Positions 33,472 to 59,795 are shown, numbered from the stretch's first letter. The stretch is DNA of 64,000 bases from an uncultured Acidobacteriota bacterium (GCA_963777605.1 CAVZRV010000028.1:32001-96000), one strand, 5' to 3'. The notes: generated from the letters alone by a model not told the origin. Numbers and translations are program-made.

Positions 33472-35716
33472 CTACTTATCCTCCAGCTTCAGGATGACGC
33501 AGATGAGGTCGCCGACGTCGGTCTTCCCGTCTTGATTGCAGTCGACTCTCGCGCCGGTTGCGGACTCGTCGCTGAGCACCTTGACGATTTCGAGCAGGTC
33601 ACCGGAATCGAGTTTGCCGTCTCCCTTAGCGTCGCCTGGGGCTGTCGCTCCGGATGCCGACCTTCTCAAAAGCATCCCGCTGTGCCGGGAGGTGAGCCAG
33701 CCGGTGCCGTCGGGCGCAACGTCGAAGACAAATCCGTTCTGGTCGTTGCCGAAGTAGCCGCCGTCCGTTACGCCTGTCCAAGTCTCTCCGCCATCGATGG
33801 TCTTCAGCAGGCGTGCCGGGTTCGAGCCGTCCGCGTTGGCACCGACCGCAAGCCAACCTTGTTGGCGGTTGACAAACCGAATTTGGTCCCGGGTATCGAG
33901 GGCCGTCTGATCGCGTTGCGCGACCTGGTTCCAGGTCGTTCCCTTGTTGGTTGTCCGGTAGACTGCAACGCCGCCCTGTTGTCCTGCGCCAACCGACCAG
34001 CCGTACTCCTCGTCGAGCAACTGGAGGCCGGTGTACGTCGCGGGCCCGGAGGGGTAGGACCAGGTCTGGCCGCCGTCCCTGGTGCAGGCCATGGCTCCGC
34101 ATTACGGCGCAGTACTGCGTGTCGCTGACGTGGTCTACCCTGGTGTAGCGATTCCCGGGGCCGGCATCCCGGACTGTAGTCCACGTCGTGCCCCGATCAC
34201 TGGTGGCGATGATCCTGCCCGCGCTGTCGCTCGTTGTAATTGCGGTCCAGATCGAATCGGGGGAAGCGACCGAAAGGATCGCTTGCTGGTACGAGCCCTC
34301 CTCCCCGGCATCAATCGGAGCCCAGGTCGCCCCGCTGTCTAGCGACTTCAACAAATCGGCAGGCGGGTCGTAGCCCTCCGTCAATGTCCAGACTTCGGAA
34401 TTCTGGATAATCTTGACCCCAGCCCAGCGAGGGGGGCACATCCCGGGAAACGGGCATGGGATCTCGTGCAAGAGCGGATTCTGCCACGATCCTCCGGAAA
34501 GAGTCTGTGTGAAACTGTTCCAGAAGCTTCCGTCAAAACCAAGGGCAAGCCCTTTTAGCGAGCCGGATGAGAGATCGATGTCCACGTAGCTGAAGCCGGT
34601 CAGCTTCTCCACGCGATCCCATTGCAGGCCGTCGCTGCTGGTCAGAACCCTTTCCTGGCAAAGACCGGAGGCGCAGGGCCAGGCTCCGGCACCCTGACTG
34701 ACAAAGAGCCCTCCACCTGCTACCGCCACATAATGCAGAACGCTCACTGGTTCCCTAACGATCGGAAGCTGGGTCACACAGTTGTGGCAGAAATCGGTGC
34801 GGTTCCATGTCTCTCCCCCATCCACGGTCTCGAGGAGGACACCTCCCGCGCCGACGTCAAGGTCGCTGAAACTCCCGGTCACCCAGCCGTGCAGGGCCGT
34901 AACGAACGCCATATCGGTGACTTGGAAGATATCGGCTGGAAGAGTGGACTGCTGCCAGATTCCATTCTCCCCGTGTCGGTAAACCAGGATCGGCCTTTGG
35001 GCTCCGGGCAGCTCGGGACCACCCAAGGCATAATGATCCGTCCGAGTCGGGGCCTCCAGCGCCGTCAGACGCTGGTCGTCATAGTCGCGTCGAGAGACGG
35101 TCTGGAAATCATCGGCCGTCTCGATGATCACCCCCAGCCATCCCATCCAGTCGGAATAGTAGTTGCCCACCAGGGTGGCACGCCCGTCCCCGTAAATCTG
35201 CAGACCCGTGAACTCGCCCGGCCACTCACCCGAGTCGTAGAGCAGTTCCCAACTGGCCCCGCCGTCGAGCATGGAAGCGAGGATTGCCTGGCCGACCGGG
35301 TTTCTTCCAACCGCGTACGCCCGCAGGGGGCCCGTCATCTGAATACGGTTGAGATACGCGATCGAGTCGGGAAGCGCGTGGACGGTCCAGCTGACTCCGC
35401 TGTTCGAACTGTAGGCGATCCCGGACAGGGTTTGCGCCATGGCGTAGCCGCCCTCGAAGAAGACGAGTCCGCTGATCCAGCTATCCTCAGTCAGCTCGGG
35501 CGCGACCTGCGTCCAGACCCAGTCCCCATCCTGCTGCACCCCCTTGACCAGCAGGTCTCCCCCCAGCCAGACGACGTCGTCCGCAGGGTCGGCGGTCGCC
35601 CGGTTCTGGACCGCGATGGAAAAGAAATCCCCCCCCGACACCCACTCCCAGTCCCGTGCCTGGGCTGGCAGCGTCAGCAGGAAAACGGCAAGCAGTGCTG
35701 GCTTGATTCGCTTCAT
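33472..35716 (-). CDS. YCF48/BNR-like beta-propeller protein with C-terminal dockerin (one frameshift near 34100)
   Basis: Signal peptide, many (S/T)xDGGxTW boxes. C-terminus PGDAKGDGKLDSGDLLEI...DCNQDGKTDVGDLICVI is a duplicated dockerin F-hand. Confidence 0.82.
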
Positions 35717-36909
35717 GATGATCCTACCTCTGCTGGGGAACGGTGATGTCGAAGGTGGTCAGTCAGCACCAGGCCGGCCTGCTTCAGAGCCACGGCGCCG
35801 ATGGGGAGGCTGGCGGTCACCTCGATCGACCCCTGGAACTCGGGCAGTGCCGAAATCGCGGCGAAAAGCTCCCTGGAGAACTGGGGCAGGTGCTCGTACG
35901 GATGCAGGGTGACAGTGCGGGTGGAGAGAACGTCCCCATCCACTTCCTTGACACGAAGTTGCACCACCACCGGGGAGTCGTTGACGTTGTACAGGGCGAT
36001 CCCCGAGTCGTAGACAGCAGCCTTGTAAACGATCGGGATCTCGAAGAAATTGACCAGCGAGGAGGCGGAAACGCCGGCTGCGGTGATGCTCTTGCCGGAC
36101 GGGTCGAACAGCTCGAAGACGATCCGGCCCTCAAGGGGGGCCGTGGCGACCAGGCTGGCGGTCCCCGCCCCCAGGTCCCCGGTCCCGGCACTGTTGAGAA
36201 ACCTGGTGCCGCTCGGGGGAACCGAGAGCGTCAGGGTGGATGCGGTCTGCCCGCCCTCCATCTGGATCTCCCAGGGAACCCCTCCGGAGCGGGCAAAGGA
36301 AATCTCGACGTCGGAAGTGGCGTTGGTGAAGTTGACGAACATCAACTGGGTCTGGAACCGGCCCCCGGCAAAGGTCCCGTTGACGAACTGGGGAAAGACG
36401 GCCAGGTTCTGATCGGCGCCCGGCGTGTTCGGCTGGTTGGTGATGTTGAGCTTTCCCGCCGTTACCTGGGTCGCGAGTTCCGCGCCGGACGAATCGTAGG
36501 CGGCCACGTTGGCGAGCGTGAGGTTGTGGCTCGATCCGAACCCGGCGCCGAAGTCGATATCGGCCACGACCTGCGCGGCGGTACCGGACGCGGCTCGAAA
36601 CGACGCCCGTGAAGAGGAGAAGATGGTGACGTTCACCTTGCCGGCCTTGACCCCGGCCCCGGCGCTGTGATCCCCGAGGAGGTCACCCTTCACCAGGTCG
36701 TCTTTACTGGCCACGGTCAGCACGGCCGAGTCGAATTCCAACAAGCTGAAGAACATGGTCGAGATCTGAGTGGCGTCTTCCACCATGACCGGTATGATTA
36801 CCGGCGTCCCGGGCAACCCGTTCACATCCGGTATCCGGACATGTACGGTGCCGAATGCGCTTGGATTCAGCACTATTCCCAGCAAGAATACCAGTATCCT
36901 CTTCATCAC
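35713..36909 (-). CDS. Secreted cohesin + FPQ-domain adaptor protein
   Basis: Signal peptide; GLPGTPVIIPVMV...LEFDSAVLTV (cohesin); FPQFVNG...DSGIALYN...ELF...VALKQ. The last codons appear shifted by a CTGA duplication. Confidence 0.8.
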   Translation of the reverse strand: MMKRILVFLLGIVLNPSAFGTVHVRIPDVNGLPGTPVIIPVMVEDATQISTMFFSLLEFDSAVLTVASKDDLVKGDLLGDHSAGAGVKAGKVNVTIFSSSRASFRAASGTAAQVVADIDFGAGFGSSHNLTLANVAAYDSSGAELATQVTAGKLNITNQPNTPGADQNLAVFPQFVNGTFAGGRFQTQLMFVNFTNATSDVEISFARSGGVPWEIQMEGGQTASTLTLSVPPSGTRFLNSAGTGDLGAGTASLVATAPLEGRIVFELFDPSGKSITAAGVSASSLVNFFEIPIVYKAAVYDSGIALYNVNDSPVVVQLRVKEVDGDVLSTRTVTLHPYEHLPQFSRELFAAISALPEFQGSIEVTASLPIGAVALKQAGLVLTDHLRHHRSPAEVGSS

Positions 36910-36969
36910 ATTTCTCCCCTCTTGTGGGCTCGAAACCCCGGGACCTCTGCGGCTTCGTGCTCTCGCGTT

Positions 36970-39900
36970 TCACCATGAGCCTTTCCCGAAGTTGACGCCT
37001 GCCTTTAGTCTTTCCCAATCAAGCGTCGTGATCCCCACCACTTCAGCGTCCCCTCGTTTGACGGTGTAGTGCACCTGGGTGACCCGGGGCTGGGCGTCAT
37101 TCCCGGATGCCGACCAGTGTCCGTCGATCCCGGAAGGCAGCAGTACCGGGTGATCGGGCGCGACCGCGAGCGGCAGGCCCTGTATCTGGACAAGCCGGCG
37201 GTTGGAGTAGTCGATCAGCTGTGGATCACGGATCTTGCCGATAAAGGAATACTCGGCGGTGACATCGACAGTCGGGTGATAGGAGTTGAGATTGATTTGC
37301 CCGGTGATCTTGACGGTCGTTGTGTTTGTGTACGGCGGCGCGTCCCAGGGATTCTCTTCCTGCTGTTCCGTGAACTCGACGTCGAATTTGAATCCCGTTG
37401 GACTCCCGGTCCAATTCAGCGGGAGGGCCCCGGCGTTCTCCACGCTGACCCGGCCGATCGCGCTTCCGTCCCCGAGCCTAATAGCGGCGCCTTCTGAGTT
37501 GTACTCGTTGAAACTGGGCTCCCAGACCGACGCGCTGAAGCTGCGGTACTCGTCCTTGAGGTACTGCAGAACATCCCCAACCTTGATATCCCCGACCTTC
37601 TCTGACACCCCTCCCACATTGAGCATCACGGTCACTTCATCCTTACCCAACACGCTGTCCGGGACGTAAGGAGAGACCTTGCCGGGTTGCCACTCTGCAT
37701 AAAGCTGTGCCGCCTCACCGTTGAAAGTGACCGAACTCGAGGGGTGCTGCTCTCCAAACCCATCACCCCAACTTGTGACGGGAGACCTCGGCCAGAGCAT
37801 TTCTTGGTCAGGCTGTGTCCAGATTCTGGGCCTGACAATGTAGCGGCCCCATTCGACCCCAACGCTTTCGGAGTAAAGCCAGAGATCACCTGAAATCGCT
37901 TCACTGGGAATGGTGAATCGAATCTCGCTTGGCTCCCATCCCCAGAAGAAGTCGATCTTGAGATCGCCCAGCATGACGTAGCAACGGGAATCTCCACAAT
38001 CGTTACCGAACCCCGTGCCGGTGATCGTGACTTCCTCTCCGATGTGGGCTTCCGGCGGACTGATGGAAGTGATCTCAAACCCGGCCAGAATGTAGAAGGT
38101 TTCGGCTACGACCGGGACGTCCTCCACTTCGACCACCAGGTATCCGGTCTGCGCACCTGCAGGCACGGCGCAGATGATCTCGGTGTCGGTCCAGGTCGGG
38201 CAGGTCGCGGAAGCCCCCCGAAGGAGACAAACCCGGAATCACCAAACCCGCTTCCCGTGATGGTGACCTCATCCCCGATTCGCCCTTCGGACGGAGCGAA
38301 CCCGGTGATCGTCTGGGGAGGCTGGAGCATCGTGAAAGGCCCGGCCGTGACATCGGAGCCGGCCACCCAAACGACCAGGTCTCCGGTGAGGCCGGCCGCC
38401 GGGACCCGGACCTGGAGCTCGGTGTCGCTCCACGAGATGTAGGAGTCGGCGGGGACTCCCCCAAAGCGGACGACGCTAACGCCGCGATTCTCTCCGAACC
38501 CGGTGCCGGCGATCCAGACTTCATCCCCGGGGTAGCCCTGGTGGGGCAGGTAGCCCGCGATCGTGTGAGTCCGCACCGTAAACTGCCCGGCGTCGGCCGT
38601 CTTCCCCTCGACGTTCAGGAGCAGCGCTCCCGTTTTGGCACCGCCGGGGACCCTGCCTCAATTTGGGAGTCGGACCAGGCCGGGTATGCAGTGGCGGGGA
38701 CACCGCCGAAGGTCACGGTACTGCCGCCGCGGACGGCGCCGAAGCCACTTCCCTGGACGGTCACCGACGTTCCGACCGGGCCTTCCCGCGGATCGACGGA
38801 ACTGACCGCCAGCGGTGCCTGGGGTGTCACGCGAGGCCAGACGTTGCCGAAGCGGTCCACGACCGAGACCACGATCTCGTCCTGGCCACTGCCGTCCGGC
38901 AGGGCGTGAGCCTGTTCCGGCCCGGGCCCCAGCGGGATGAGTTCGGCGCCGGGAAGGACCACGCCGTTTCGGTGGATCCGGTACCCCTGGATGTAACCTC
39001 GGGGTATGTCGCCGATTCCCTCCGTCGTCCAGGTGACGGAATCCGGGCTGTGCAGGGTAACACGCGGAGCCAGGAGGAGGTAGAAGGCGATCTGGGTGAA
39101 CACGCCGCTGGTCGTGCCGCTGTTGACGAGCGAGAACTCGAGACCGGTGTTGGGTCCGGTGCTCCCCATGTCGGGAATGGCCAGGGGGGAACTGCGCAAG
39201 TCGCGAAAACCGAGTCCCGAGCTGAGCGGCGTGACCTCGTCATAAGCGGCATCGGCAGTTCCGAGAAAGGGGTATGCCAGCCATTCCAGGGCCCGGTCAG
39301 CCGAAGCGGAGGCATCGATGACGAGGAGGGCCGGGTCCGGGTTGTTCGCCTGCAGGCGGAGGTGCGAGGCGGAAAGGGGGGGCAGGGTCCTTCGGTAGAG
39401 GACGAAGGTGTGCCGGTTCCGGTTGTCGAACGTGAACCGGGGCAGGCCCGAGAGGCTGAGCGTCGCCAGGGTCGCCATCCGGCTCTTGATGGCGCCGTGG
39501 AGTCCTTCGGACGCTTGCGGGGTCTTCAGGATCTCGTCGACGTAGTCCCCGAAGGCCGAGGTCAGGCCGGGTGCTCCGGCCGCCTGGATTCCGGCTCCCA
39601 GGTTGATCAGGTCCGACGTGGAACCGTGTCTCAGGGCAGCGGCGGTCACTTCCGAGCCGGTGCGCAGCTTCAACCAGTCCAGGAAATGAGCCAGGGTGTA
39701 CATGCTGCCCTCGCTGCCGGTCGTGATCGAGACGTCGAGGTACTGGGCGGCGCGGTCGTAACCGAGTGAGGCGGCGCCCCCCTAAAGCTCCATTCTCTCC
39801 GCGTCGCTCAACTGGACGGCGCGGGCTGAATAGTGGTTGGCGGCTGCCTCAACGAACCACTGGTTGTAGACCCACGCGTGCAGGTTAGAGGAATAGTGTT

Positions 39901-40904
39901 GGCCCTGGAGTACGTGAACCAGTTCATGCCCGGCGACGCCGCGCATCTGGTCCCAGGTTCTGAGCTGCTGGTTGCTGATATAGAGATCGCAGAACCAGCC
40001 TCCGCCCAGCTTCGTCTGACCTTCAATTCCGGGTCCGAGGTCTTCGACGCAAGCGCTCATCGGCGCCGATTCGGGGCTGAAAACCCTCGTCCCGCTCGGG
40101 TCGGTGAAGGTCAGGAGCCTGGCGTAAGCGTCGTTGAGGGCGATGTCCAGGTCTTCGATAGAGTCGGGGATGTCCGGATCGCTGGCGTTTCCGGTCCTGC
40201 TGTCCCAGGTGAGATCGTCGAGCACCGCGTCGGAACCGCCGGTCGGGGGGTAGTAGTAAACCTGGAAACTCGATCCTTGGCGATAGGCCGAACGGAGAGA
40301 GGTGTACTTGCGCGCGCGGACCCGGACCCGCTTTTCGTGGGAAGGGCCTGCCTGAAGCGGGATCTCGGTCCCGTCCCGAAGTCCCGCCCCCGAGGCCGCG
40401 GAAAGCGCCGGGTCCAGCTGGAGGTCGAAGAAAAGGGATTGGAGGTCGCTGTCGTACCCGGCCGCGTTTCCGATCGGAACCCAGCGGCTGGTTTCCGGGT
40501 CAAAAGCCTCGGGCGTCAATCGATCCGGTTTCCGAAACCGGCGCCGAAGTCGATCTGCATGACGACCTGGAAGAGCAGTCCGGAGTCTGACTTCAGCAGG
40601 TCGAGGGATGGAGAGAAGGCATGACCCGAACCTTGCCACTTTCACGAACCACATCCAGCCCGTGGTCGAAGAGGACATTCCCAGAAAGGACCCAGTCGTC
40701 CGATTCGACACTGAGTTTCGCCGGGTCATACTCGAGAGTCAGTTGAAGCGCGGAAAGGTCAACCGCTCCATCGATCATCACCGGGACATTGACGGTGGTG
40801 CCGGGAAGCCCGCTGATTTCGGGGACCCTCACCACTGCCTGCCCCAGGGAGGCTGGAACCAGCGACATCACGATCAGCAGGCGTAGCATCGACCTCAAAC
40901 GCAT
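36970..40904 (-). pseudogene. Frameshifted secreted protein: N-terminal cohesin, HExxH+E metallopeptidase-like domain, about five IPT/TIG repeats
   Basis: GLPGTTVNVPVMIDGAVDLSALQLTLEYDPAKL (cohesin); AGHELVHVLQ...WFVEAAA; repeated P.EG.IG.EVTITGxGFG. Five or more ORF pieces. Confidence 0.72.
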
Positions 40905-41120
40905 TCCTCCGGCAAGTTGAGTGTAAAGGCAAATTGGATTTCGATGAAGTGGCTTGGCGAATTAATCTCCGAATGCCGCTGTAGAAGCCACTGGAAATCT
41001 GCGGGAAAGACAGGGAAGACTGTTGAAGCGTAATGACTTGATCCCCATTTCCGGGAGCTCTTCTGAGGGTTGCTGTCGATGGAAAAAAGGAAGTCCTATG
41101 TCGTCGGAAGAACTCGATTT

Positions 41121-41323
41121 GAACAAGGGACAGACTGGTTCCCGCCCAGGCTGTGAACAAGAACAAGGTTCCCGCCCAGGCTGTGAACAAGAACAAGGGA
41201 CAGACTGGTTCCCGCCCAGTGCCGCTGCGGCGGCAACAGGAATCAGCCTGTTTGAATGCATAAGCCGACAGGCGGAATGGTTGGCGATCGGGTCAGTTGC
41301 AGCGACAGCACGAGTCTGTCCCT
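41121..41323. repeat. Tandem 40/30/30-bp units containing the GGGACAGACTG motif, plus an inverted motif
   Basis: GAACAAGG(GACAGACTGG)TTCCCGCCCAG x3, the middle unit lacking the bracketed 10 nt. GAGTCTGTCCCT at 41312. Confidence 0.88.
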
Positions 41324-41499
41324 ATCTAGCAATTTACGGTAACCGCGAGAGAGAAGGGGACGGCCTTCGTGGGAACGACCGGAGCGGACCTGGAGAAGAC
41401 TTTCTCCCACCAGGAAACGCGCATCGTCAAAAACGACACTACGATCAGCTCTCACAACCGGACATCTTGACTTACTGCTGACAATCGCAGCCCGAAACT

Positions 41500-41528
41500 T
41501 TGCAGGAAAATCGCAGTATCATTATAAT
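41500..41528 (+). promoter_or_regulatory. Sigma70-type promoter of mltF
   Basis: TTGCAG-N17-TATAAT in an AT-rich patch, 44 bp upstream of the ATG. Confidence 0.65.
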
Positions 41529-41572
41529 AATAAAATACTTATAAAATTTCCACCTTTTCAGGTCGAGTCTTC

Positions 41573-42925: not shown

Positions 42926-43028
42926 CTCCAGCAGGCCAAAACCAGTCTGTCCCTTTCTCCACTTCGAACCTCCATGGACTTCACCGTCTCCCGATTTCTA
43001 TTTATGCCAAGTCAGACACAGAACTCTA

Positions 43029-43057
43029 TTGACACAGATTGATAGCCGGGATAGTGT
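43029..43057 (+). promoter_or_regulatory. Possible sigma70-type promoter for the 43256-47961 operon
   Basis: TTGACA-N17-TAGTGT. Confidence 0.45.
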
Positions 43058-46200: not shown

Positions 46201-46276
46201 AATCTCGCTTCCGGCTTCGATCTTCGGGTCCGAGACCGGGATTCGCGCAGTTCAGGAGACCGCTCCGATCGAATAA
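43256..46276 (+). CDS. Large secreted beta-rich protein with two N-terminal FPQ-domain pairs and an IPT-like domain; S-layer/scaffold candidate
   Basis: Signal peptide; IFAHIADG...DTAMALVN...ELF...LLTSVP followed by DFPQIADG...RTGLALAN...EFF...LTTSVP; PGGTFVLQGGNFG. Confidence 0.8.
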   Translation: MRQILRPNRLFTLCALAIMSLAALVLIGARSRPFGGGGPATVQAVLESAPSPIRGEYLQKIPEFRRLLRSPVEIGEIDRLATPPGYQIASTGGRIIFAHIADGAIQGTNQFMQTSITVVNDSTYPVAATLQFYENAGGALTLTIDKVSASSFSFSLVPGQMKRLVTSGTGSVKSGWALLRSDQPLAATCSFSLRTTSGGILSDVGVEESIQNTEFTLFADTLGNADTAMALVNPDESNTANVTLELYNSTGVVKASTAVTLQPREHLAKFVTELFRGTSGIGEFEGSLVVQSNRPVTGITLRTLGALLTSVPMVPARNPRDAVTELDFPQIADGTAAPLRIVTSVIVFNNGADPITGTLEFIKADGSPMAVSIGNQTASSFDFNLNPRGVRRFQTQGSGALKTGWARITADAGVAGSAIYQIQNPGAGQVVTEVGVNAAPGTSPINAIADSIADARTGLALANRNPDDSTDVTISLYDGSGAKKAGKEITLEPLAQQALFLDEFFSEVSGIQELLGRVLISGDEGTVALTLRQTGLLTTSVPTVNPVHGFAPVSVFEFMQTLTSTSPAVRWRIEQSGIDLGLNQLSASATGLGANLNFPAGSELGYGVYLLKYGSVISTGGVVKLISTRTDSLTFDVVISGENIEPGTVLMSGKITGQATGNLVIELGPTGASNGDWNYGFGLELDLLLRDGLINAPTQAGTRTIETVYTSASQKLTEDAVRIVRTTTQPQSFTPAAAGSPFLTSSRPLYTSPGGTFVLQGGNFGAEPDVTFKPDGSSDLPAFFPTLVDQGLEVYVPTAAQAGTVQVFNGQSASNQLKTLTIYSPTMTLVKAAGSSGDSFTIDLTSSQSPVQLGLATFQLSLFGAAWPEVQGAAGSVVGSFTITGEAQAGQAEQFDVRLESNQAESISLAVLEEGETDPAGRITLSKGTGTSSDGILLFYAPLTLSDIPRVNGFPTSLELVLDGLVFAPSTAGSEVYWAAESISLPASIFGSETGIRAVQETAPIE

Positions 46277-51500: not shown

Positions 51501-54500
51501 CGACTGACGGATCGGTCAGCGTTTCACCGCCGGAGCCCGACACGAGCAGGGCATCTACCGAGAGGAGATTGGTGTCGTTCGGGACGTCGAAGCTCACTTC
51601 GAAATCGACCGTCCCCAATCCCTCGCTCACGAATTCGAACGGCGGATCGACCAGAAGCTGCCCGTCCCCATGACGGATCTGAAGTTCGACCCGGCCCTGC
51701 GAGCCACCCGTCATCCGGTATCGGACCGTCGCATTGACCGTGACAGACTCGCCTCCCGTGAGCGGCGACTCGGGGTCGGGCGTCAAATCCAGAAACTCGA
51801 CGCTGTCCTCCCGCAGGTAGTGAAGCGGAAGCGAGATGGCGGTGATGTCGGCTGCACTGTCGGGCAGAAGCATGGCTACAACCGAAACGCTGCTGATCTC
51901 TTCCGTGACGCTCTGGGCCACAAGCGAGGCAAACTGGGCGACGGTTGCGGCGGATGTGACCGGCTGGGAAGCCTCCCCCAGCACCAGGTCGATATTGTTG
52001 TCCCTGAACACTCGAACGAAGAGAGTCCCAGAATCGTCGCTGGTCAACTCGTAACGGACGGAGAGGTTCGAGAAAGTGACAGTCCCGTCGGCCCCAACCA
52101 CTGGAAATCCGGAGGAAGCGTCGGGCGAGATCGAAAGGAACTCAACGGTGTCCTGAGGCTGGGCCACACAATTCGAGAACTCGGAGGTATTGTTATCCGG
52201 GTCGGTGGCTGTGGCAGTGAGGAAGTCACCGGCGTATGGAGAATCGAATTCCACATGTCCAGTAGCATCGGTAGTAACCGTCAGAGAACCCAGAAAATCC
52301 TGCCCCTCGCCATAGCCGGAAGGGTCACACGCGGCGTTTGAAAAGAACTGGATCCGGAACTGCGTATCGGGGCGGCTGTCGAGCGTCCCCCGGACGCCGC
52401 CAGGGCTGAAAGTCAGGACCGGGAAGTTCTGGCCTCAGGTTCCCATCCTGATCGTCCCAGTCATCATTTCGCGCGACCCCAGGCACGCCGGTATCTATCC
52501 CTAACCCCCCGTTCGCGAAGATGCTGTTGGTGAGGACGCCATTGCCTTCAGTGTCGCTGCCAAAGATCGAAACACCGGCCTTCCCGTTGAAACCGACAAT
52601 GTTCCCTTTGGCGGAATCCTCACCTCCCACCAAGGAATTCAAGCCAGTTAGCGCGACTCCCTCGAATAAGTTGCCAAGTGCGGTTCCGTCCAACCCGACG
52701 CCGATTCGATTGGACTGGATCGTGTTCCCACCGCCACTGAGACTTGTCGCGAGGATTCCCCTCTCAAGGTTCGAGGCAATCACGTTGCCGGCGCCTGGTG
52801 CCCCGATCACAACGTTGGTAGTCCCAGTTCCAATCCGAATCCCATCACGGCCATTTCCCCAAGCGAGGCTGCCTGTCAGATCTGTCCCGATATGGTTGCC
52901 CAGGATGAAGCTTCCAGGGCTTCCCGAGAGGTTGATACCGTCATAGGCCGCTGCCGCAACTATGTTCCCGAGGCCTTCACCCTCCCCGCCGATCGTACCC
53001 GGGGACCCGCTCAGCTCAATGCCATAGCTCCCGTTCCCAAGGGCGGCCGTCCCTAACGCGTCGGTCCCGACGAAGTTTCGTTGAATCAGCACTACGGAGG
53101 AGTCGATGACTTTGACCCCAGTTCCCTTAGTGGCGGAAACAACATTTCCCGAGCCAGGGGCCGCTCCCCCAATGGTGACTCCGTTGCTGTTTCTGATGTA
53201 GAGGCCGAGGTTCCATCCTAAAGGGGTATCTCCAGCATCGTCCGTTCCAACGAAGTTGTTTCGGATAGCAAGGTCTGAGGCCGAGTCTATCGAGATGGCA
53301 GTGCCGCGAAGCGTGTTGGCAAACACGTTTCGGCTTCCATATCCGAGTCCACCGATTGTGACTCCTGAAGCGGCCGCCACTTCGGAGCCGGACGGAAAAA
53401 TCCTGATCCCCTGATAGAGACCTCCCAGTACTTCGCTGCCGGTGGGATCCAGCCCGAACCAGTTGCCGAGAAACTCGATGTCCCCCGAGGTTTCTTTCCA
53501 GACAACAATACCGTCGCCGTTGCCTACAATCAGATTTCGGGCCGGCTCAACGGTTCCACCGATCACCACCTCGCGCACGTCATCGAGGCGCATGTCGGCG
53601 TCATCCACCTGGGTTGCGGTGGCGTCAGTGCCGACGTAATTGCCTTCGAACAATACGTCCGTGGTCTCCTTGACGATGACACCGGACCCTTCCCAAAGCG
53701 CCAGGCCGCGGACCACTGTGCCTCCAGAGTAAACCGCGATGTACGTCTGCATGTCGACGATGCCGCCGGAAGTCGTTCCGTCAATAACCGCACCTTCGCT
53801 CAAATTCGGGATCGGTCCTCCAGGAAGAACCTGCGTCACGGAGAAGTGGATGGCATCGAGTCCGGGGCTGGCATTCGACTCGTCAATCGCCGCCCAGAAG
53901 GTGCACTGATCGCCCGGGTCACTCGAGGAATCGCACCTGCCGTCTCCCTTCTTGTTGTCCCGCTCGTCGCTGGACCGATTGACCGTAAAGGTCCAGAACC
54001 GGGGTTGTTTCCGCAAAGCTCAGCCCCACGGGACCCCGTGAGAGGAGAACCCAGTCATCGAGGCTGTCCGGAGTCAAACGCATGGGGACCATCGCCACGG
54101 CAGCCTCGCTCAGAGAGAATGATGTGGACGCGAACTCTGGTGGAGAGGTTTCGCTCGAGGCCCGGGCTTGGATACCGCCCGCGCCCATGAAAACCTGGAC
54201 CTGGCCCAAGTCCGGCCCCATGAGGACCAACTCGTTTCGGGGCGAAGTCGAGAGGTTTCCCGCAGACAGTCGAAGATGACCCGGCTCACCTCGACTAGCC
54301 GCAAGAACGGCGGTCCCGGCAGGCAACTGAAGCAAAGGCTTCTCCCAAAACTCTCCAGATTTCCGATCGAAAGCCAACTGGCGAATCTCGCCCCGGGCGG
54401 TAAGTACCGCCAACTCCTTGCGGAAGTCCCCCGTGAAGTCTCCAACCGCCAGATCGATGGCCTCGGTCGGCATCGGAACGCTAATGAGGGTCGGCGACCC

Positions 54501-55429
54501 AGCCTCCGACCGGTAGCGAGCCGGGATCGAGAGCTCCCGGTCTCTCCGGATGATGCTGACCTCAGACCCGGCGGCCACTGCCAAGTCAATCGGGAAATCA
54601 CCGTCCAGGGCTCCGAGGGCAAGAGCCGAGATCCGGCTCGGAAATCGAATCTCTTCGGGTTCCTGGCGAAGGGCACCGCGGGGGCTTTGGAAAACGAGGA
54701 CGGTCGCTCCTCCTCTGCCGTCGATTCCCACCACGAGATCCGCAAGGCCGTCACGGCGGTTGACCTCCCCGCTGACGAGTGCGGTCACAACACCCGGAAG
54801 CTCAACCCGTTCCGGAGCGCCGAATCGTCCATCCCCTGAACCGGGCATCAGGAAAAGAGCGGCCTCGTCCGTGGCTACTACGACGAGATCGAGGTGCCAT
54901 CAGCATCGAAGTCGCCCGCAGCCATGAAGTTGGGAACGACAGGCGAGGACTGCACCATCGCCCCGGGCTCAAACGGGGTATCGGTGAAGACGCCCTCGGC
55001 CTTCCTTCGGAGTGCCTCCCGGCTGTTGGGATAGACCGCATCGACGCTCCCGCGGTGTAGAGCAACAATCCCACCATCCGGCCCGCCATACCCGCAAACG
55101 AGGTCGGGCATACAGTCCTCGTCGGAAATATCCCGACGTCAATGACAACGGATCGACCGATTGTGATGAAAGAAGAAACCGGAACGCGGGCTTCCCTTCG
55201 TACTCGGCTTCGACCGGCCGGCTCGACTGAAGGTTAATCCAGGGACGGCCCTGACCCATCGCACGGAGAACGGCGGAGGAAAGCTCTCCTCCGGACTTGC
55301 CCCAGCCAGACCCGTCCACAAGAAGGAAGAAGAAGGCAAAGGCAGAACCGCCCGGCAATCTTCGTCATCAAACTCGATCCGCCGCCGATCCGGCTCTTCT
55401 TTCTCCTCCGGCCGTTGTATCATGATCAC
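48518..55429 (-). pseudogene. Giant secreted protein, frameshifted as sequenced: FG-GAP module, CSLREA/beta-helix, Ig-like domains, helical region, DxDxDG Ca-binding repeats, C-terminal dockerin
   Basis: About eleven ORF pieces. GDFDADG, NRRDGLADL, CTFWAAIDESN, GNxIGTD repeats, NTSEFS, DSDGDGYGDGEE; C-terminus PGDLNRDDQLDVRDLV...ADVNGDGKIDMADAV. Start overlaps the upstream stop (ATGA). Confidence 0.8.
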
Positions 55430-58400
55430 TTCGGCTCCAGGACTGGGAACGTTGTCAGCAGTATTCCCTCCTGCTTGAGAGCAACTACGGCAATTGGGGT
55501 CGGCGATGTGACTTCAATCCGCCCTTCAAAGTCGGCCTGTCCAGTCAGCGAGTCGAACAACTCGGTGGCGAAGAGCGCCTGGTGCCGGCCCGCCGACAGA
55601 TCCTGAACGGTCGTTTCCAGGGTTTCTCCGTCTGGATCCAGGAGGGTCAGGGAGACCTCCGCACCGGCGGATGAAACGTTGGCAAGCGCGATCCCGGTGT
55701 TGGACCCGCCGCCGACCAGGAGCGGGAGGGTGAATGCCTTTCCGACCGGAGAGACCCCGACCGCCGTCTCGGACGAGGAACTCCCATCCGGCTTGACGGC
55801 GGTGAAAATCAGCGTGCCGCCGAGAGGGACCGTCGAACTGACCGGGGCGTAACCCGAGGCCAGTTCCCCCAGGCCATCGGTCTGAAGGAACAGAGCTCCA
55901 GCGGCTGGAATCTCCAGGTCGAAACTCGAACCGGTGCGGCTGTCGGTCAGCGTCAGCGCGAAGGGAGAACCGTCGGAGCGGAAGAATTCGATCTCTCCCA
56001 CCGCATCCGCCTCGGACCGGTTGACGAAGACCAGCGTGGTGACAAAGCTGCCCCCGGCAAACTGCCCGTTGGCAACCTGCGGAAACACGATCTCATTCTG
56101 GCCGGCTGAAGGCGGGGGGAGCGATTCGGAGGCGATCACCGAGCCACCGGAAAGCCCCGGCACGAGGCTGTTACCGGCCGCGTCCGAGACGTCTGCACCA
56201 ACCAGGTTGAAAGCGACGGCGGTCCCCACGGGGACACCCCCGTCGAGTCGAAGGGTCACGTTCGCCAAAACTCCTTCCGATCCCGACAGTGTGTCAAGGC
56301 CGCTCGAGAAGCCGGCTACCGTGATCCGGTTCGCCTCAATCGAGTAGCTCAGAGTGTGATTCCCGGCCAGGTCACCGGCGGAGACCACTCTGGACGCCGG
56401 TACGGAAAGCAGATCCGGGTTGAAAGCCAGCGTGAACCGAAAGGCCGAAACCCCGTCCCCTCCCTCGATCCGCACTGGAACGATAGCGGTACTTCCGGGG
56501 GGTGCCGATGCCGTGCCGACCGACAGCGCTACGCGCGTCGGTTCGAGGATCGTCAGGAATCCGTCGTCGGTCCCGCCATAGGTTGCCTGGACAGCATCCC
56601 TCACTGGAAAATCAGTCGAGTTGGTGCGGCCGACCAGGTAGATGTTGCCCGCCCCGTCCACATCCAGGTCAGAGATATCCTCGCTGGAAGACGAAGGGTC
56701 GCCGGTATCGCCTCCAAAGGAACTCGAGAAAAGGACGGACGGCGGATCGTCGGACGAAAAGACCGCAATGAACCCGTCACTGGTCCCGGGGGCCTTCGCG
56801 GCCTTCAACGGGGAGACCGTTGGGAAATCGTTGGAGTTCGTGAACCCGGCCAGATAGGCCTGTCCGTCATCCCCAACCCTCACCGCAAACGCCCAGGTCT
56901 GACCACCGCCCCCCAGGTACGTGGAATAGAGCAGTTGGTTTCCGCTCGACGAAAGTCGGCTCAGGAACGCATTTTCATATCCTTCCCGATCGAAGACGGT
57001 TGCGCCGGCAGTCACCGGAAAATCGTCCGAGCCTGTGAATCCCGTCAGGTAGATGCTTCCGTCCGGTCCCCGATCAATGCCCCGGATCTCGTCCTGGCTG
57101 CCCCCGCCCAGGTAGGTCGAGAAAAGAACCTGACCTCCGCTGGAACTGATCTTCACAACCGTGCCGTCGCGTCCTCCACCCGACGCCGGCTGCGCCGCTC
57201 CCGAGACCGGGAAATCGGTTGATTCAGTCAATCCGCCCAGGCAGAGATTGCCAGAACCGTCGAGCGACAGGGCCAGAAAGAGATCCAGCCCACTTCCGCC
57301 GTAGTAGGTGGAAAACCGAACTGACGAGCCCCCAGGGGCCAATTTCGTTGCGAAACCGTCATAGTCACCGTCGAGACCGGCCTTGAGGGCGTTGGACGTC
57401 GGGAAATCTGCCGATCGCGTGTAGCCTGCCAGGTAGATGTTTCCCGACGGATCGACCTGGATTCCCTCGATATTGTCGTCGCTGGAGCCTCCAAGATAGG
57501 ACGAGAAAAGAATCCGGGAACCGTCGGATGACAGCCTGGTGATGAATCCGTCTCTCGAACCGACCACCGGGCCTTGGTTGATGTCGCTCTGGATCGGTTT
57601 GACCAGCGGAAAATCGGCCGATTTGGTGGTTCCCGCGACGTAGGGAGTCCCGTCGGGCCCCACGGCCAACTCCCACCCATACTCCTCGCGGTCGCCCCCG
57701 AGGTAGGTTGCAAACAGCAGTTCGCCGCCGCCGGGGCTGTACTTGGCAATGAATACATCACTTGAATAGAAGCCGGGGCGGTCACGCTTTTCCGACTGTA
57801 CCGGGTCGAGTGTCGGGAAATCGTCGGAGTAGGTGTCCCCGACCACAAAGATGTTGCCGTCGGAGTCGAGGGCGACGGACCGGATCGACTCACTGGCGCT
57901 TCCTCCCAGATAGGTCGACAGCCGAATGACCGGATCAACGGTCAGCTTTTGCTCCAGGTTTCGGTCGGGAATCCGAAATCCATAGCTCTGTCTGCCCCGG
58001 ATCTCGAACGTTCCGGGGACTCCGGTCCTCCCTTCCTGGAGCACAACGGGCGGACTTTGAACCAGGACGCGGTCACCCTGCCGAATAAGCAGGTTGCCAT
58101 CTTCGTCGAGTTCCAGCAAATCAGCCCCTTCAACCCGCATCTCGACCTGAGACAGGTCTCCAAAGGGCTCGAGAGTGAGGTCGTACTCGAGTTCCCCATC
58201 CCGACTGTAAAACCAGGCATCAACACCCGGGTAAATGTCGCGGTAAACGAGGCGCCGGAAGTGGGGAACGCCGGTATGCCATTCCTCCGGGGTTCGGCCT
58301 CGAAAGTAGTGGCTCCGGGCGGCGGTCTTTTCGACGCCGCGGGGTCCAGAGGAAGGCTCCGATCCGACAAATTGGAGCTGGACACCCTCCTTCGAGCCTC

Positions 58401-58617
58401 CCAAACCGATCGATACGCCGTCGTGCGAGAACCCGATCCCTCGCCTGCCCGCCCGCGCCAGGAAGAGGTAGTTCAAATCCACCTGTCCGCGATTCGCTTC
58501 GAAGGTGAAGTCCCGCTGCCGGATCGCCTTCCGAGCAACCGACAGGGCGACCGCCTGGCTCCAGACGCAAGACGCCAGGAGCAGCGCGATTGCCGGCAGA
58601 CTGTTCTGCGCCCTCAC
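55426..58617 (-). CDS. SBBP beta-propeller repeat protein + cohesin + C-terminal FPQ domain
   Basis: FEANRGQ...IYPGVD...DP head; about seven STYLGG...G.T.S.DFP repeats; APPGSTAIVPVRI...FTLAFNPDLL (cohesin); FPQVANG...NTGIALAN...LLTTFPV. Confidence 0.88.
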   Translation of the reverse strand: MRAQNSLPAIALLLASCVWSQAVALSVARKAIRQRDFTFEANRGQVDLNYLFLARAGRRGIGFSHDGVSIGLGGSKEGVQLQFVGSEPSSGPRGVEKTAARSHYFRGRTPEEWHTGVPHFRRLVYRDIYPGVDAWFYSRDGELEYDLTLEPFGDLSQVEMRVEGADLLELDEDGNLLIRQGDRVLVQSPPVVLQEGRTGVPGTFEIRGRQSYGFRIPDRNLEQKLTVDPVIRLSTYLGGSASESIRSVALDSDGNIFVVGDTYSDDFPTLDPVQSEKRDRPGFYSSDVFIAKYSPGGGELLFATYLGGDREEYGWELAVGPDGTPYVAGTTKSADFPLVKPIQSDINQGPVVGSRDGFITRLSSDGSRILFSSYLGGSSDDNIEGIQVDPSGNIYLAGYTRSADFPTSNALKAGLDGDYDGFATKLAPGGSSVRFSTYYGGSGLDLFLALSLDGSGNLCLGGLTESTDFPVSGAAQPASGGGRDGTVVKISSSGGQVLFSTYLGGGSQDEIRGIDRGPDGSIYLTGFTGSDDFPVTAGATVFDREGYENAFLSRLSSSGNQLLYSTYLGGGGQTWAFAVRVGDDGQAYLAGFTNSNDFPTVSPLKAAKAPGTSDGFIAVFSSDDPPSVLFSSSFGGDTGDPSSSSEDISDLDVDGAGNIYLVGRTNSTDFPVRDAVQATYGGTDDGFLTILEPTRVALSVGTASAPPGSTAIVPVRIEGGDGVSAFRFTLAFNPDLLSVPASRVVSAGDLAGNHTLSYSIEANRITVAGFSSGLDTLSGSEGVLANVTLRLDGGVPVGTAVAFNLVGADVSDAAGNSLVPGLSGGSVIASESLPPPSAGQNEIVFPQVANGQFAGGSFVTTLVFVNRSEADAVGEIEFFRSDGSPFALTLTDSRTGSSFDLEIPAAGALFLQTDGLGELASGYAPVSSTVPLGGTLIFTAVKPDGSSSSETAVGVSPVGKAFTLPLLVGGGSNTGIALANVSSAGAEVSLTLLDPDGETLETTVQDLSAGRHQALFATELFDSLTGQADFEGRIEVTSPTPIAVVALKQEGILLTTFPVLEPK

Positions 58618-59795
58618 TCGGGCACCACCGGAAATGTCGTCAACAGGGCTCCGCTTTGCTTGAGTGCGATGGCGGCAACGGCCTCCGATGCCACCACCTG
58701 TATGAACCCGTTAAAGGCCTGCTGGGCAGGGATTTCGCTGAAGAACTCGCTGGCAAAACGCGGTACGTGCTCTCCGGGCGAAAGGTTCAAGGACCGGCTG
58801 CCGATGATCTGGCCGTCCGGCCGGTGCAGAGTCAGGGTCAACTGGATACTGGTCCGGCTCGTGTTGGCAAACGCGATCCCGGTGTTCGAAAGCCCGGGCT
58901 CAACCAGAATTGGCACCTTGAAGTGAGTCAGCAGCAGCGAGGCTCCCACTCCGGTTTCAGCGGTGGTCGTTCCGGCACTGTTGCGGGACGAAAAGAGCAA
59001 CGTACCTCCAATGGAGGCGGTTGCCCGAATTTCGGCGTATCCGATACCCAGAGCGCCGGAGGCATCCGTCTCCATGAAGACCGATTCCTGGGATCCCAGC
59101 GCAAATGGGAACACCGAGCCAGCCCGCCCATCCTGGAGTTGAACAACTAAAGGAGATCCATCGGACCGATACAACCGCACTTCGGCGTCGGTAGCGAGGC
59201 CGCTCAAGTTGGCGAAAATCAGCGTCGTGCGAAAGCTGCCGCCGGGATAGGACCCGTCAACAACCTGGGGAAAGAAGAGATCATTCGCTCCTCGCGCCGG
59301 CGCCAACGACCCAGCGCCCAAGGTCAAATTCCCGGAAACCGGCTGGACCTCCACCCGATTTCCCAGCCGATCAGAAGCCAGGACGTTTGACAACTGGACA
59401 GGGATCTGCACCCCGTTTGGAATGCCTGCCTGCAGGTTCACCCTCAACTGCAGAAGTGTCCCCCTGTCTGCCCCGAACTCGCTCGAGGACGCTGACGAAA
59501 CCAGGATTCTTGCCGACCCGTTTCGACGTTCAAATCCCAGAGTGTGGTCGGGCAGGAGAGATCCAGCAATCCAGAAGTCTTCCGCGGGCAGCGTCAAGCG
59601 GGAGTCGAGACCAAGCGTCAACTCGATCGCGGAGATGCCGGCTCCGCCTTCCAGGATGACAGGCACCACCAATTCCGTTCCTGCTGAGGCACCAAGGTTT
59701 GGGACCGTGAGTTGCGCCTGACCAAGTGCATGACTGCCAAGGCACAGCAACACCTCAGCAAAAAGGAAAGCCAGCAGTCTTCCGGTCGCTGCCAT
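58614..59795 (-). CDS. Secreted cohesin + FPQ-domain adaptor protein
   Basis: Signal peptide; AGTELVVPVIL...ISAIELTL (cohesin); FPQVVDG...NTGIAFAN...LLTTFPV. Same layout as 35713-36909. Start placed at MAATG. Confidence 0.82.
   Translation of the reverse strand: MAATGRLLAFLFAEVLLCLGSHALGQAQLTVPNLGASAGTELVVPVILEGGAGISAIELTLGLDSRLTLPAEDFWIAGSLLPDHTLGFERRNGSARILVSSASSSEFGADRGTLLQLRVNLQAGIPNGVQIPVQLSNVLASDRLGNRVEVQPVSGNLTLGAGSLAPARGANDLFFPQVVDGSYPGGSFRTTLIFANLSGLATDAEVRLYRSDGSPLVVQLQDGRAGSVFPFALGSQESVFMETDASGALGIGYAEIRATASIGGTLLFSSRNSAGTTTAETGVGASLLLTHFKVPILVEPGLSNTGIAFANTSRTSIQLTLTLHRPDGQIIGSRSLNLSPGEHVPRFASEFFSEIPAQQAFNGFIQVVASEAVAAIALKQSGALLTTFPVVPE

What the first reader, a model, noticed from the sequence alone, without database searches (positions are those of the whole stretch)
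33472..59795. Non-cellulolytic cohesin-dockerin system encoded as two parallel operons
Seen: four cohesin-like domains (about 36490-36850, 40520-40840, 56140-56530, 59320-59720) and two clear dockerins (33472-33639, 48518-48700). Both minus-strand clusters share one layout, two cohesin genes followed by a translationally coupled terminal dockerin gene (40904>36909>35716 and 59795>58617>55429). Established: cohesin-dockerin pairs assemble cellulosomes in Bacillota. Here the partners are a YCF48-like propeller, a CSLREA/beta-helix giant, an SBBP propeller and a metallopeptidase, with no cellulase, in an apparently diderm organism. Inference: a modular surface-display complex for adhesion or proteolysis.
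Basis: partly seen in the sequence, partly recalled or inferred. Interest (0 to 1): 0.88.

Follow-up and report, generated by a model that had tools for sequence, protein, structure and literature searches.

The report
Acidobacterial cohesin-dockerin gene clusters, partly broken
Two neighbouring gene clusters in what looks like an Acidobacteriota genome carry genuine cohesin and dockerin modules on non-enzyme surface-type proteins, a known kind of protein "plug and socket" in a little-studied setting, but half of the genes are interrupted as assembled and binding is untested.

Summary
The core observation holds. Three of the four proposed cohesins pass Pfam's Cohesin cut-off. The fourth is homologous to one of them and folds as a cohesin. 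Both dockerins pass Pfam Dockerin_1. No further cohesin or dockerin lies in the 64 kb.

Both clusters read cohesin gene, cohesin gene, dockerin gene. Related Acidobacteriota MAG loci again place cohesin genes beside each other or beside a dockerin gene.

New here: three of the four cohesins are fused to an unnamed ~225-residue two-beta-sandwich module, "domain X". Cohesin plus X forms a conserved ~390-aa family. X also sits on many propeller and beta-helix proteins.

Caveats:
- Gene A, gene C and the dockerin giant are frame-broken, and gene B has a shifted tail.
- The claimed "translational coupling" of the dockerin genes rests partly on these defects.
- CSLREA was not detected, and the peptidase call is only a lead.
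- Binding, surface display and function are untested.

Non-cellulosomal cohesin-dockerin modules have been known since 1999-2009, so I rate this a new variant of a known kind, of moderate interest.

The parts
36970..40904 (-). Gene A: signal peptide, cohesin (40519-40835, spread over two frames), HExxH region (about 39785-40480), at least three IPT/TIG domains (about 38639-38806, 38352-38561, 37897-38073) and a C-terminal region. Interrupted by at least 4 frame changes and an in-frame TAG at 39782-39784.
   Evidence: Pfam Cohesin 33.2 bits and TIG hits. Continuation of the cohesin in another frame. TAG followed by a run of six G. DUF6055/Peptidase_M30 lead only.
35713..36909 (-). Gene B (P0001, 398 aa): signal peptide, cohesin (36406-36849), domain X (35716-36402). 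The last ~15 codons are frame-shifted relative to the family.
   Evidence: Pfam Cohesin 27.6 bits. Family alignments A3 and A7. DNA of the tail.
33472..35716 (-). Gene C: signal peptide, BNR/YCF48/sortilin-type beta-propeller, C-terminal dockerin (33475-33642). One frame break near 34090.
   Evidence: Pfam PSII_BNR 38.1 bits and Dockerin_1 26.4 bits. Intact relatives of 741-761 aa carry the same dockerin in one ORF, 3 of 5 aligned.
58614..59795 (-). P0002 gene (393 aa from ATG 59795): signal peptide, cohesin (59283-59717), domain X (58617-59288). Intact.
   Evidence: BLASTP E 2e-14 to the P0003 cohesin. Model pLDDT 92.5. Foldseek best hit 2xdh, TMt 0.84.
55426..58617 (-). P0003 gene (1063 aa): signal peptide, DUF7948 (about 57928-58503), SBBP beta-propeller repeats, cohesin (56113-56550), domain X (55429-56106). 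Intact. The GTG start overlaps the P0002 stop (GTGA).
   Evidence: Pfam DUF7948 139 bits, SBBP 98.4 bits, Cohesin 32.9 bits. Junction DNA. Local domain X HMM.
48518..55368 (-). Dockerin giant: signal-peptide-like start at ATG 55368, FG-GAP repeats, NosD-like beta-helix, undefined middle, TSP3 repeat (48728-48790), C-terminal dockerin (48536-48700). At least 8 frame changes.
   Evidence: Pfam FG-GAP_3, weak NosD, TSP3_bac 35.3 bits, Dockerin_1 41.6 bits. Three-frame reading of the 5' end. Paralogy to the + strand giant.
43256..46276 (+). P0005 (1006 aa, intact), between the clusters: two tandem copies of domain X (43538-44197, 44228-44893) and a C-terminal region with no family.
   Evidence: Local domain X HMM, E 5.9e-30 and 6.6e-32. 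No Pfam or NCBIfam hit.
25654..33135 (+). Paralogous FG-GAP/beta-helix giant on the + strand, also frame-broken. Its last piece (31864-33132) resembles domain X/DUF5719 weakly. It has no cohesin and no dockerin.
   Evidence: Pfam. BLASTP between the two giants. Local HMMs.

Best explanation
The window, most likely from an Acidobacteriota genome, holds two separate minus-strand gene clusters. Each encodes two Sec-exported proteins with a single cohesin and one large non-enzymatic protein tagged with a C-terminal dockerin. The dockerin proteins are a BNR-type propeller in cluster 1 and an FG-GAP/beta-helix giant in cluster 2.

The most likely mechanism has three steps:
1. The Ca-binding dockerin of the cargo plugs into the cohesin of a neighbouring gene product, as in cellulosomes and in the Archaeoglobus fulgidus pair (inferred).
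2. The cohesin carrier places the cargo. The conserved carrier is a ~390-aa 'cohesin + domain X' adaptor (gene B, P0002; also the C-terminal half of P0003).
3. Domain X, a two-beta-sandwich module fused directly to many other secreted propeller and beta-helix proteins of this lineage, would supply the common attachment or assembly function on the envelope or in the extracellular matrix (inferred).

The adaptor would then be a functional analogue of single-cohesin anchoring scaffoldins, with X in place of SLH.

Shown: module identities, gene order, conservation of the cohesin-X family, and its linkage to dockerin genes in relatives. Inferred: binding, pairing within a cluster, location, and the role of X. 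In this assembly 3 of the 6 genes are interrupted, so the system may be inactive in this genome, or the assembly may be faulty there.
For: - Cohesin and dockerin identities: Pfam scores above the curated cut-offs, PDB profile hits to cohesins, and a cohesin fold for the Pfam-negative copy.
- Only 2 dockerins and 4 cohesins exist in 64 kb, and each dockerin gene lies directly downstream of two cohesin genes.
- Signal-peptide-like N-termini on all six proteins, read by eye.
- The cohesin-X architecture is a family. 25 of the best 150 library hits cover both halves, at 28-40% identity to gene B.
- In the three full-length related loci, 6 of 6 cohesin ORFs carry domain X, and each locus has two cohesin genes.
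- 2 of those 3 loci have a Dockerin_1+TIG gene between the cohesin genes. The third locus reaches the contig end about 1 kb after the second cohesin gene.
- The dockerin cargo of L001 and L002 shares only the dockerin with the window's proteins. The adaptor is conserved while the cargo varies, as expected of a modular docking system.
- Relatives of gene C keep the dockerin nearly unchanged at 48-69% overall identity.
- Domain X occurs on SBBP, sortilin/BNR, NosD/beta-helix and FG-GAP proteins. None of the 25 library proteins scanned carries a dockerin.
- Cluster 1's two cohesins are each other's closest relatives, at 42% identity.
Against: - No binding evidence of any kind exists.
- Gene A, gene C and the giant cannot be translated as single ORFs, and gene B's tail is shifted.
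- The breaks are concentrated in these genes and in the + strand giant, while about 22 kb of other coding sequence is intact. Homopolymer density does not differ between the two sets. Simple random sequencing error is therefore a poor explanation, and real decay is possible.
- The first Ca loop of gene C's dockerin has K where three relatives have N.
- Cluster 2's cohesins are no closer to each other than to other cohesins (28-33%).
- Domain X has no informative structural relative. The best hit is RbmA at E 2e-5 with TM 0.22; TM1070 gives TMt 0.67 for one half. Its proposed anchoring role is pure inference.
- No SLH, sortase, PEP-CTERM or other known anchor was found.
- A lipobox-like LLASC in P0003, read by eye, is absent from the two relatives with complete N-termini.
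- In a diderm, Sec export alone reaches only the periplasm. No outer-membrane export route was identified.
Confidence: 0.55

Rival explanations
1. Decayed relic. The modules are real and the ancestral clusters worked as a cohesin-dockerin system, but in this genome genes A, C, the dockerin giant and the paralogous + strand giant are true pseudogenes. No complex is made here.
For: - At least 4 frame changes plus an in-frame TAG in gene A, one break in gene C and at least 8 in the giant.
- The breaks cluster in a few genes, while neighbours of 2-3 kb are intact.
- Homopolymer density is equal in broken and intact genes.
- The public protein records for this contig carry the same broken forms: P0156 of 696 aa and P0004 of 397 aa.
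Against: - Each piece still scores well against its family and against relatives. Gene C is 69% identical to an intact relative across the break. There has been little decay besides the indels.
- P0002 and P0003 in the same cluster are intact.
- The contig is long (241 kb). Consensus indels in strain-variable surface-protein genes are an alternative cause (my inference, not tested).
Confidence: 0.25
2. The modules do not pair. The dockerin-like modules act alone, as Ca-dependent stabilising or ligand-binding elements, or as adhesin elements as suggested for Omnitrophota giants. The cohesin-like domains are structural beta-sandwiches. The gene linkage only reflects co-regulated secreted proteins.
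For: - Published views treat many non-cellulosomal dockerins and cohesins as orphan modules on non-catalytic proteins (passage in PMC13487519). The Omnitrophota paper suggests an adhesin role for one giant ORF's dockerins (passage in PMC10066038).
- The cohesin-X family is far larger than the set of dockerin neighbours seen here.
- L003 shows two cohesin genes and no dockerin within the DNA held.
Against: - In 4 of the 5 cohesin clusters examined (2 in the window, L001, L002) a dockerin gene is the immediate neighbour.
- No other dockerin occurs in the 64 kb window or in the rest of the four loci, about 60 kb.
- The dockerin is strongly conserved in gene C relatives.
Confidence: 0.15
3. It is a glycan-degrading, cellulosome-like system after all. 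The complexes would recruit or cooperate with the neighbouring carbohydrate-active enzymes.
For: A GH16 gene (60373-61566) lies directly upstream of cluster 2 on the same strand. A CE15-like glucuronoyl esterase gene lies directly upstream of the cohesin gene in L001.
Against: - Neither enzyme has a dockerin.
- No dockerin-bearing protein in the window or the loci has a glycoside hydrolase domain.
- No protein here has more than one cohesin.
Confidence: 0.05

Closest known systems
Non-cellulosomal cohesin and dockerin of Archaeoglobus fulgidus (PDB 2xdh; Bayer et al. 1999 and Voronov-Goldman et al. 2011, seen only as references in PMC4611034)
   Same: This is the best sequence-profile hit and the best structural hit of the window's cohesins. 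The organism does not degrade cellulose, and the modules sit on non-enzyme proteins. Use of the A. fulgidus cohesin-dockerin pair as a working binding pair is reported in passages of PMC12484212.
   Different: It is archaeal, has no domain X, and shares only about 18% sequence identity. My recollection that the A. fulgidus modules lie in adjacent genes comes from no call.
Single-cohesin anchoring scaffoldins of Clostridium thermocellum (OlpA, OlpC, SdbA)
   Same: Signal peptide, one cohesin, then a non-catalytic C-terminal module, as in gene B and P0002. The OlpA and OlpC cohesins are among the structural hits (3ul4 TMt 0.83, 4dh2 TMt 0.74).
   Different: Their C-terminal module is SLH, which binds a Gram-positive wall (recalled, from no call). 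Here it is the unnamed domain X in a diderm lineage, the cargo is not enzymatic, and anchoring is not shown.
Ruminococcus bromii amylosome (PMC4611034; title and abstract seen in the search listing)
   Same: A cohesin-dockerin system used for something other than cellulose degradation.
   Different: It is in Firmicutes and its dockerins are on amylases. It is still a glycan-degrading enzyme complex.
[quoted passage not shown] 2009; the paper is not held, so known only through citing passages in PMC13487519 and PMC10066038)
   Same: [quoted passage not shown] Dockerins on giant ORFs have been proposed as adhesins.
   Different: Those passages describe orphan modules. They do not describe a conserved cohesin-X adaptor family with dockerin genes as neighbours. 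I could not check whether Acidobacteria were already listed in that paper.
Pfam DUF5719 and Vibrio cholerae RbmA (for domain X only)
   Same: DUF5719 is the nearest named family. The Atlas score is 0.95, and 2 of 13 domain X copies hit it, best E 6e-4. RbmA, a biofilm scaffolding protein per its PDB title, is the first Foldseek hit.
   Different: All these scores are below family cut-offs. The RbmA match has TM 0.22 and rmsd 18 A, so only the general architecture is shared. No paper in the library mentions DUF5719.

Membership tests
Cohesin module (Pfam PF00963) | Sequence matches the family model above the curated cut-off | tested here: met
   3 of 4 candidates score 27.6-33.2 bits against a cut-off of 24.1. 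The 4th (59283-59717) has no Pfam hit at E<=0.01, but is homologous to a positive copy at BLASTP E 2e-14.
Cohesin module (Pfam PF00963) | Cohesin beta-sandwich fold | tested here: met
   Only the Pfam-negative copy (P0002) was modelled: pLDDT 92.5. Foldseek best hit is 2xdh at E 1.4e-12, TMt 0.84, rmsd 2.0 A, followed by many cellulosomal cohesins at TMt 0.70-0.83.
Cohesin module (Pfam PF00963) | Binds a dockerin on its flat sheet face | not testable with these tools
   No model coordinates were available for surface mapping. Binding needs an experiment.
Dockerin module (Pfam PF00404) | Sequence matches the family model above the curated cut-off | tested here: met
   26.4 and 41.6 bits against a cut-off of 22.9.
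Dockerin module (Pfam PF00404) | Two Ca-binding loop-helix repeats with acidic or amide residues at loop positions 1, 3, 5, 9 and 12 (rule recalled from general knowledge) | tested here: met
   Read from alignment A6. Both loops of the cluster 2 dockerin and the second loop of the gene C dockerin fit. The first loop of gene C has K at position 3 where three relatives have N.
Cellulosome in the strict sense | Scaffoldin with two or more cohesins (definition as quoted in PMC13487519, Conclusions passage) | tested here: not met
   Each of the four cohesin proteins has one cohesin.
Cellulosome in the strict sense | At least one dockerin fused to a glycoside hydrolase | tested here: not met
   The dockerin proteins carry BNR-propeller, FG-GAP, beta-helix and TSP3 modules only. 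The neighbouring GH16 has no dockerin.
Cellulosome in the strict sense | Known cell-surface anchor (SLH or sortase signal) on a cohesin protein | tested here: not met
   No such Pfam or NCBIfam hit on any piece.
Non-cellulosomal cohesin-dockerin pair | Cohesin and dockerin on separate, non-carbohydrate-active proteins of one genome | tested here: met
Non-cellulosomal cohesin-dockerin pair | Demonstrated Ca-dependent binding between the two | not testable with these tools
   Needs ITC, pull-down or a native gel with and without EDTA.
Working operon in this genome | All genes translatable as single reading frames | tested here: not met
   3 of 6 genes (A, C, giant) are interrupted and gene B has a shifted tail. 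P0002 and P0003 are intact.
CSLREA-domain beta-helix proteins (NCBIfam TIGR04214) | Match to the CSLREA N-terminal model | tested here: not met
   No hit at E<=0.01 on any piece of the dockerin giant. The + strand paralogue scores 16 bits against a cut-off of 25.
Zinc metallopeptidase (for gene A) | Match to a peptidase family model or structure | tested here: inconclusive
   An HExxH motif is present (read). No Pfam, NCBIfam or PDB sequence match. Atlas feature search gives DUF6055 at 0.94 and Peptidase_M30 at 0.90, with shared features below the tool's 170 guide value.

The most novel reading that the evidence does not exclude
Domain X is a previously unnamed attachment module of Acidobacteriota that binds the envelope or extracellular matrix, or assembles with itself. 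Large secreted propellers and beta-helix proteins reach the same site in one of two ways: by direct fusion to X, or indirectly through a dockerin that plugs into a small, conserved cohesin-X adaptor. This would be a diderm counterpart of the SLH-anchored scaffoldins of Firmicutes. It would give a major soil phylum an exchangeable surface-display system unrelated to polysaccharide degradation.
Probability: 0.25. Interest if true: 0.7.

Novelty: new variant of a known kind. Interest (0 to 1): 0.45.

Why it matters
Cohesin-dockerin pairs are among the tightest protein connectors known and are widely used in protein engineering. Outside cellulosomes their natural role is almost unstudied.

A conserved adaptor family (cohesin plus domain X) with changing dockerin-tagged cargo would offer three things:
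- a testable case of what such modules do in a non-cellulolytic diderm;
- new orthogonal connector pairs;
- a first functional handle on domain X, which occurs in thousands of unannotated proteins (8168 library hits at E<=0.001), and on the giant surface proteins of Acidobacteriota.

If the breaks in this window are real, it would also be an example of such a system in decay.

Tried and rejected
- Complex prediction. The P0002 cohesin (A5, residues 24-172) was folded with the cluster 2 dockerin (A6). The verdict was 'no answer', with scores 0.20 and 0.18 against a mark of 0.32, and the controls were not run. This is neither for nor against binding. Only 1 of the 8 possible pairs was tried. Five earlier hand-ins met a full queue.
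- The search for homologous proteins with gene B found only the window's own protein. With the C-terminal part of the giant and lengths 'longer' it found nothing, so no intact relative of the dockerin giant is known to me.
- The search for related loci with the 20-row alignment A3 had no usable pattern. The 8-row A4 gave 4 loci from 17 pattern matches. L004 holds only a 68-aa fragment of domain X and was not used further.
- Promoter and terminator scans of both clusters gave counts at chance level: 3 against 1.4 and 0 against 2.2 promoters, 6 against 6.3 and 15 against 13.5 terminators. They say nothing about operon limits.
- Peptidase identity of gene A: see the membership test. It remains a lead only.
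- Lipoprotein anchoring of P0003: the LLASC motif was seen by eye, but 0 of the 2 relatives with complete N-termini (P0090, P0123) have it. I dropped the idea.
- Homopolymer-driven sequencing error as the cause of the frame breaks: run density is the same in broken and intact genes. Not supported.
- Domain X as a member of DUF5719: 2 of 13 copies hit it weakly. I do not file it there.
- Peer et al. 2009 (PMC3035643) is not held.
- Literature searches for cohesin/dockerin with Acidobacteria or Acidobacteriota returned 10 and 2 papers, none on such a system judging by titles and abstracts. A search for DUF5719 returned 0.

Full report
WHAT IS THERE

I translated every long stop-to-stop frame on the minus strand between 33.4 and 60 kb and scanned 21 of them against Pfam. 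Cohesin (PF00963, cut-off 24.1 bits) is passed by three:
- 40596-40961: 33.2 bits
- 35716-36969: 27.6 bits
- 55429-58710, residues 727-839: 32.9 bits

Dockerin_1 (PF00404, cut-off 22.9 bits) is passed by two:
- 33475-34101: 26.4 bits
- 48521-49054: 41.6 bits, preceded by a bacterial TSP3 repeat

Other evidence places it with the cohesins:
- It aligns with the other three.
- It matches the P0003 cohesin by BLASTP at E 2e-14, 33% identity.
- A profile of all four finds solved cohesins, best 2xdh_A at E 1.6e-11.
- Its AlphaFold model, built on a 28-row alignment (pLDDT 92.5, pTM 0.83), superposes on cohesin structures. The best is the non-cellulosomal cohesin of Archaeoglobus fulgidus (2xdh: E 1.4e-12, target-normalised TM-score (TMt) 0.84, rmsd 2.0 A). 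Many cellulosomal cohesins follow at TMt 0.70-0.83.

Local HMMs run over all six frames found no further cohesin or dockerin in the 64 kb. The dockerin HMM was built from the hits themselves, so only the absence of extra hits carries information.

GENE MAP

Cluster 1 (minus strand):
- Gene A, 40904 to 36970: cohesin, a region with an HExxH motif, at least three IPT/TIG domains, and a C-terminal region.
- Gene B, 36909 to 35713 (P0001): cohesin plus a ~225-residue C-terminal module that I call domain X.
- Gene C, 35716 to 33472: BNR/YCF48/sortilin-type propeller plus dockerin.

Cluster 2 (minus strand):
- P0002, 59795 to 58614: cohesin plus domain X.
- P0003, 58617 to 55426: DUF7948, SBBP propeller, cohesin, domain X.
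- A giant, about 55368 to 48518: FG-GAP, NosD-like beta-helix, TSP3, dockerin.

Each cluster has a long upstream intergenic region and ends against a convergent gene. All six N-termini look like signal peptides by eye.

Between the clusters lie five genes or ORFs:
- an MltF-like SLT gene
- P0005, which carries two more copies of domain X
- an ORF with no family
- lgt

Upstream, on the + strand, lies a paralogous FG-GAP/beta-helix giant.

STATE OF THE GENES

Three of the six genes cannot be translated as assembled.
- Gene A changes frame twice inside its cohesin. The rest of the domain sits in 40519-40641. It has an in-frame TAG at 39782-39784 followed by six G, and it changes frame at least twice more.
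- Gene C has one break near 34090. Relatives of 741-761 aa at 48-69% identity run through it in one frame and end with the same dockerin. This holds for 3 of the 5 relatives aligned; the other two have a different C-terminus.
- The giant changes frame at least eight times.
- Gene B is an ORF, but its last ~15 codons depart from the family's conserved ending. In another frame it ends like its close relative P0041, at a TAG 7 nt before gene C's ATG.

The GTG at 55429 is a doubtful start for the giant: ATG 55368 gives a signal-peptide-like N-terminus. The GTGA overlap between P0002 and P0003 is real.

The breaks are not spread evenly. They lie in gene A, gene C, the two giants and gene B's tail. 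About 22 kb of other coding sequence is intact, including the 3-kb genes of P0003 and P0005. Homopolymer density is the same in both sets. I cannot tell true pseudogenes from consensus errors in strain-variable genes.

RELATIVES AND ORGANISM

A word-indexed search with gene B found only the window's own record. A full HMMER search with a profile of the three cohesin-X sequences found 8168 proteins at E<=0.001 and 566 at E<=1e-30. Among the best 150, 25 cover both cohesin and domain X, and 22 of these are 344-454 aa long. They align end to end with gene B at 28-40% identity.

One scan of genome contigs gave four loci, all titled Acidobacteriota MAGs. The only named relative of gene C is also from an Acidobacteriota MAG. 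The window is therefore most likely acidobacterial. That the phylum is diderm is general knowledge, and the MltF-like gene and lgt fit.

Gene order in the three loci with a full-length match:
- L001: cohesin-X, then a protein with an N-terminal dockerin and three TIG domains, then a small ORF, then a second cohesin-X protein.
- L002: the same order as L001.
- L003: two adjacent cohesin-X genes, with the contig ending about 1 kb later.

All 6 cohesin ORFs in these loci carry domain X. The dockerin proteins of L001 and L002 share only the dockerin with the window's proteins. The cohesin-X unit is thus conserved while the dockerin cargo differs.

DOMAIN X

Domain X has no Pfam or NCBIfam model. 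Only 2 of 13 copies touch DUF5719, weakly. Atlas neighbours are unnamed acidobacterial clusters.

Modelled alone (pLDDT 90.2), it is all-beta. By my reading of the strand pattern and of the half-length TM1070 hit, it consists of two sandwich subdomains. Foldseek finds nothing convincing: RbmA at E 2e-5 but TM 0.22, and TM1070 at TMt 0.67 for one half.

Among 25 library proteins carrying domain X that I scanned with Pfam, the accompanying domains were:
- SBBP/DUF7948: 5 proteins
- sortilin/BNR: 4 proteins
- NosD/beta-helix: 4 proteins, one of which (P0152) also carries FG-GAP
- PKD: 1 protein (P0051)
- Cohesin: 5 proteins, one of which (P0074) has seven cohesins
- Dockerin: 0 proteins

X is therefore attached directly to the same kinds of protein that carry dockerins or cohesins in the window.

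MECHANISM

The best-supported reading is a non-cellulosomal cohesin-dockerin docking system. Dockerin-tagged cargo (the propeller or the giant) binds the cohesin of a protein encoded next to it. The conserved cohesin-X adaptor brings the cargo to wherever X acts.

Module identity, gene order and conservation are shown. Binding, within-cluster specificity, location and the role of X are inferred. Only cluster 1's cohesins are each other's nearest relatives (42%). Cluster 2's are not (28-33%).

The rivals are:
- a decayed relic;
- modules that act independently;
- a link to the neighbouring GH16 (window) or CE15-like gene (L001), neither of which has a dockerin.

COMPARISON WITH WHAT IS KNOWN

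This is not a cellulosome. No protein has two or more cohesins, no dockerin sits on a glycoside hydrolase, and no SLH or sortase anchor is present. The definition used is the one quoted in PMC13487519.

[quoted passage not shown] Citing passages describe these as mostly non-catalytic (PMC13487519) and, in one Omnitrophota giant ORF, as possible adhesins (PMC10066038). Both cite Peer et al. 2009, which I could not read.

The nearest solved relative is the A. fulgidus cohesin. The nearest architectural analogue is the single-cohesin anchoring scaffoldin of C. thermocellum, with X in place of SLH; the SLH architecture is recalled, not from a call.

Searches for cohesin or dockerin together with Acidobacteria or Acidobacteriota returned no paper on such a system, judging by titles and abstracts.

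VERDICT

The kind of system is known. What is new is the conserved cohesin-X adaptor family with dockerin-gene neighbours in Acidobacteriota. Interest is moderate, lowered by the broken genes and the lack of any binding evidence.

Noticed in passing
window 25654-33135, 36970-40904, 48518-55368; also about 34090 and about 35760: Frame breaks are concentrated in three very large surface-protein genes, with single breaks in genes C and B. About 22 kb of other coding sequence is intact. Homopolymer density is the same in both sets. The cause is undecided: real decay, or consensus errors in variable genes.
   Followed up: partly
window 43256-46276 (+): P0005, an intact 1006-aa secreted protein with two tandem copies of domain X and a ~440-residue C-terminal region that matches no family.
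   Followed up: partly
window 3310-3609 and 20560-20859; ORFs 3413-4366 (-) and 20663-21616 (-): Two identical copies of an element 17.25 kb apart (at least 300 nt shown). Each contains a 317-aa ORF with a weak IS200-like Y1 transposase hit of 28.3 bits.
   Followed up: no
window 4767-7604 (+): A 945-aa ORF with a TOTE conflict-system archaeo-eukaryotic primase domain (320.7 bits), a ResIII/DEAD helicase and DUF559. It is a candidate defence or conflict gene.
   Followed up: no
window 41137-41196; 33177-33215 and 33351-33389; 62209-62276: Short intergenic repeats: a perfect 30-nt tandem duplication upstream of gene A, a 39-nt pair (95%) downstream of gene C, and a 34-nt tandem pair upstream of the C69 peptidase gene.
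   Followed up: no
window 33475-33642 and relatives P0157, P0160, P0164: The dockerin of the gene C family keeps two cysteines in its second repeat, at loop position 2 and in the helix, in all four sequences. It is otherwise nearly invariant at 48-69% overall identity. A disulfide is possible but untested.
   Followed up: no
protein P0074 (representative library, 2189 aa): A relative with seven Pfam cohesin stretches plus a Big_1 domain, that is, a true multi-cohesin scaffoldin-like protein related to the window's cohesins.
   Followed up: no
window 60373-61566 (-); L001 8124-9407: Carbohydrate-active genes sit directly upstream of cohesin genes on the same strand: GH16 in the window and a CE15-like glucuronoyl esterase in L001. 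Neither has a dockerin.
   Followed up: partly
window 9425-11732 (-): Adjacent multihaem cytochrome c (420 aa) and cytochrome b (353 aa) genes. They appear unrelated to the finding.
   Followed up: no
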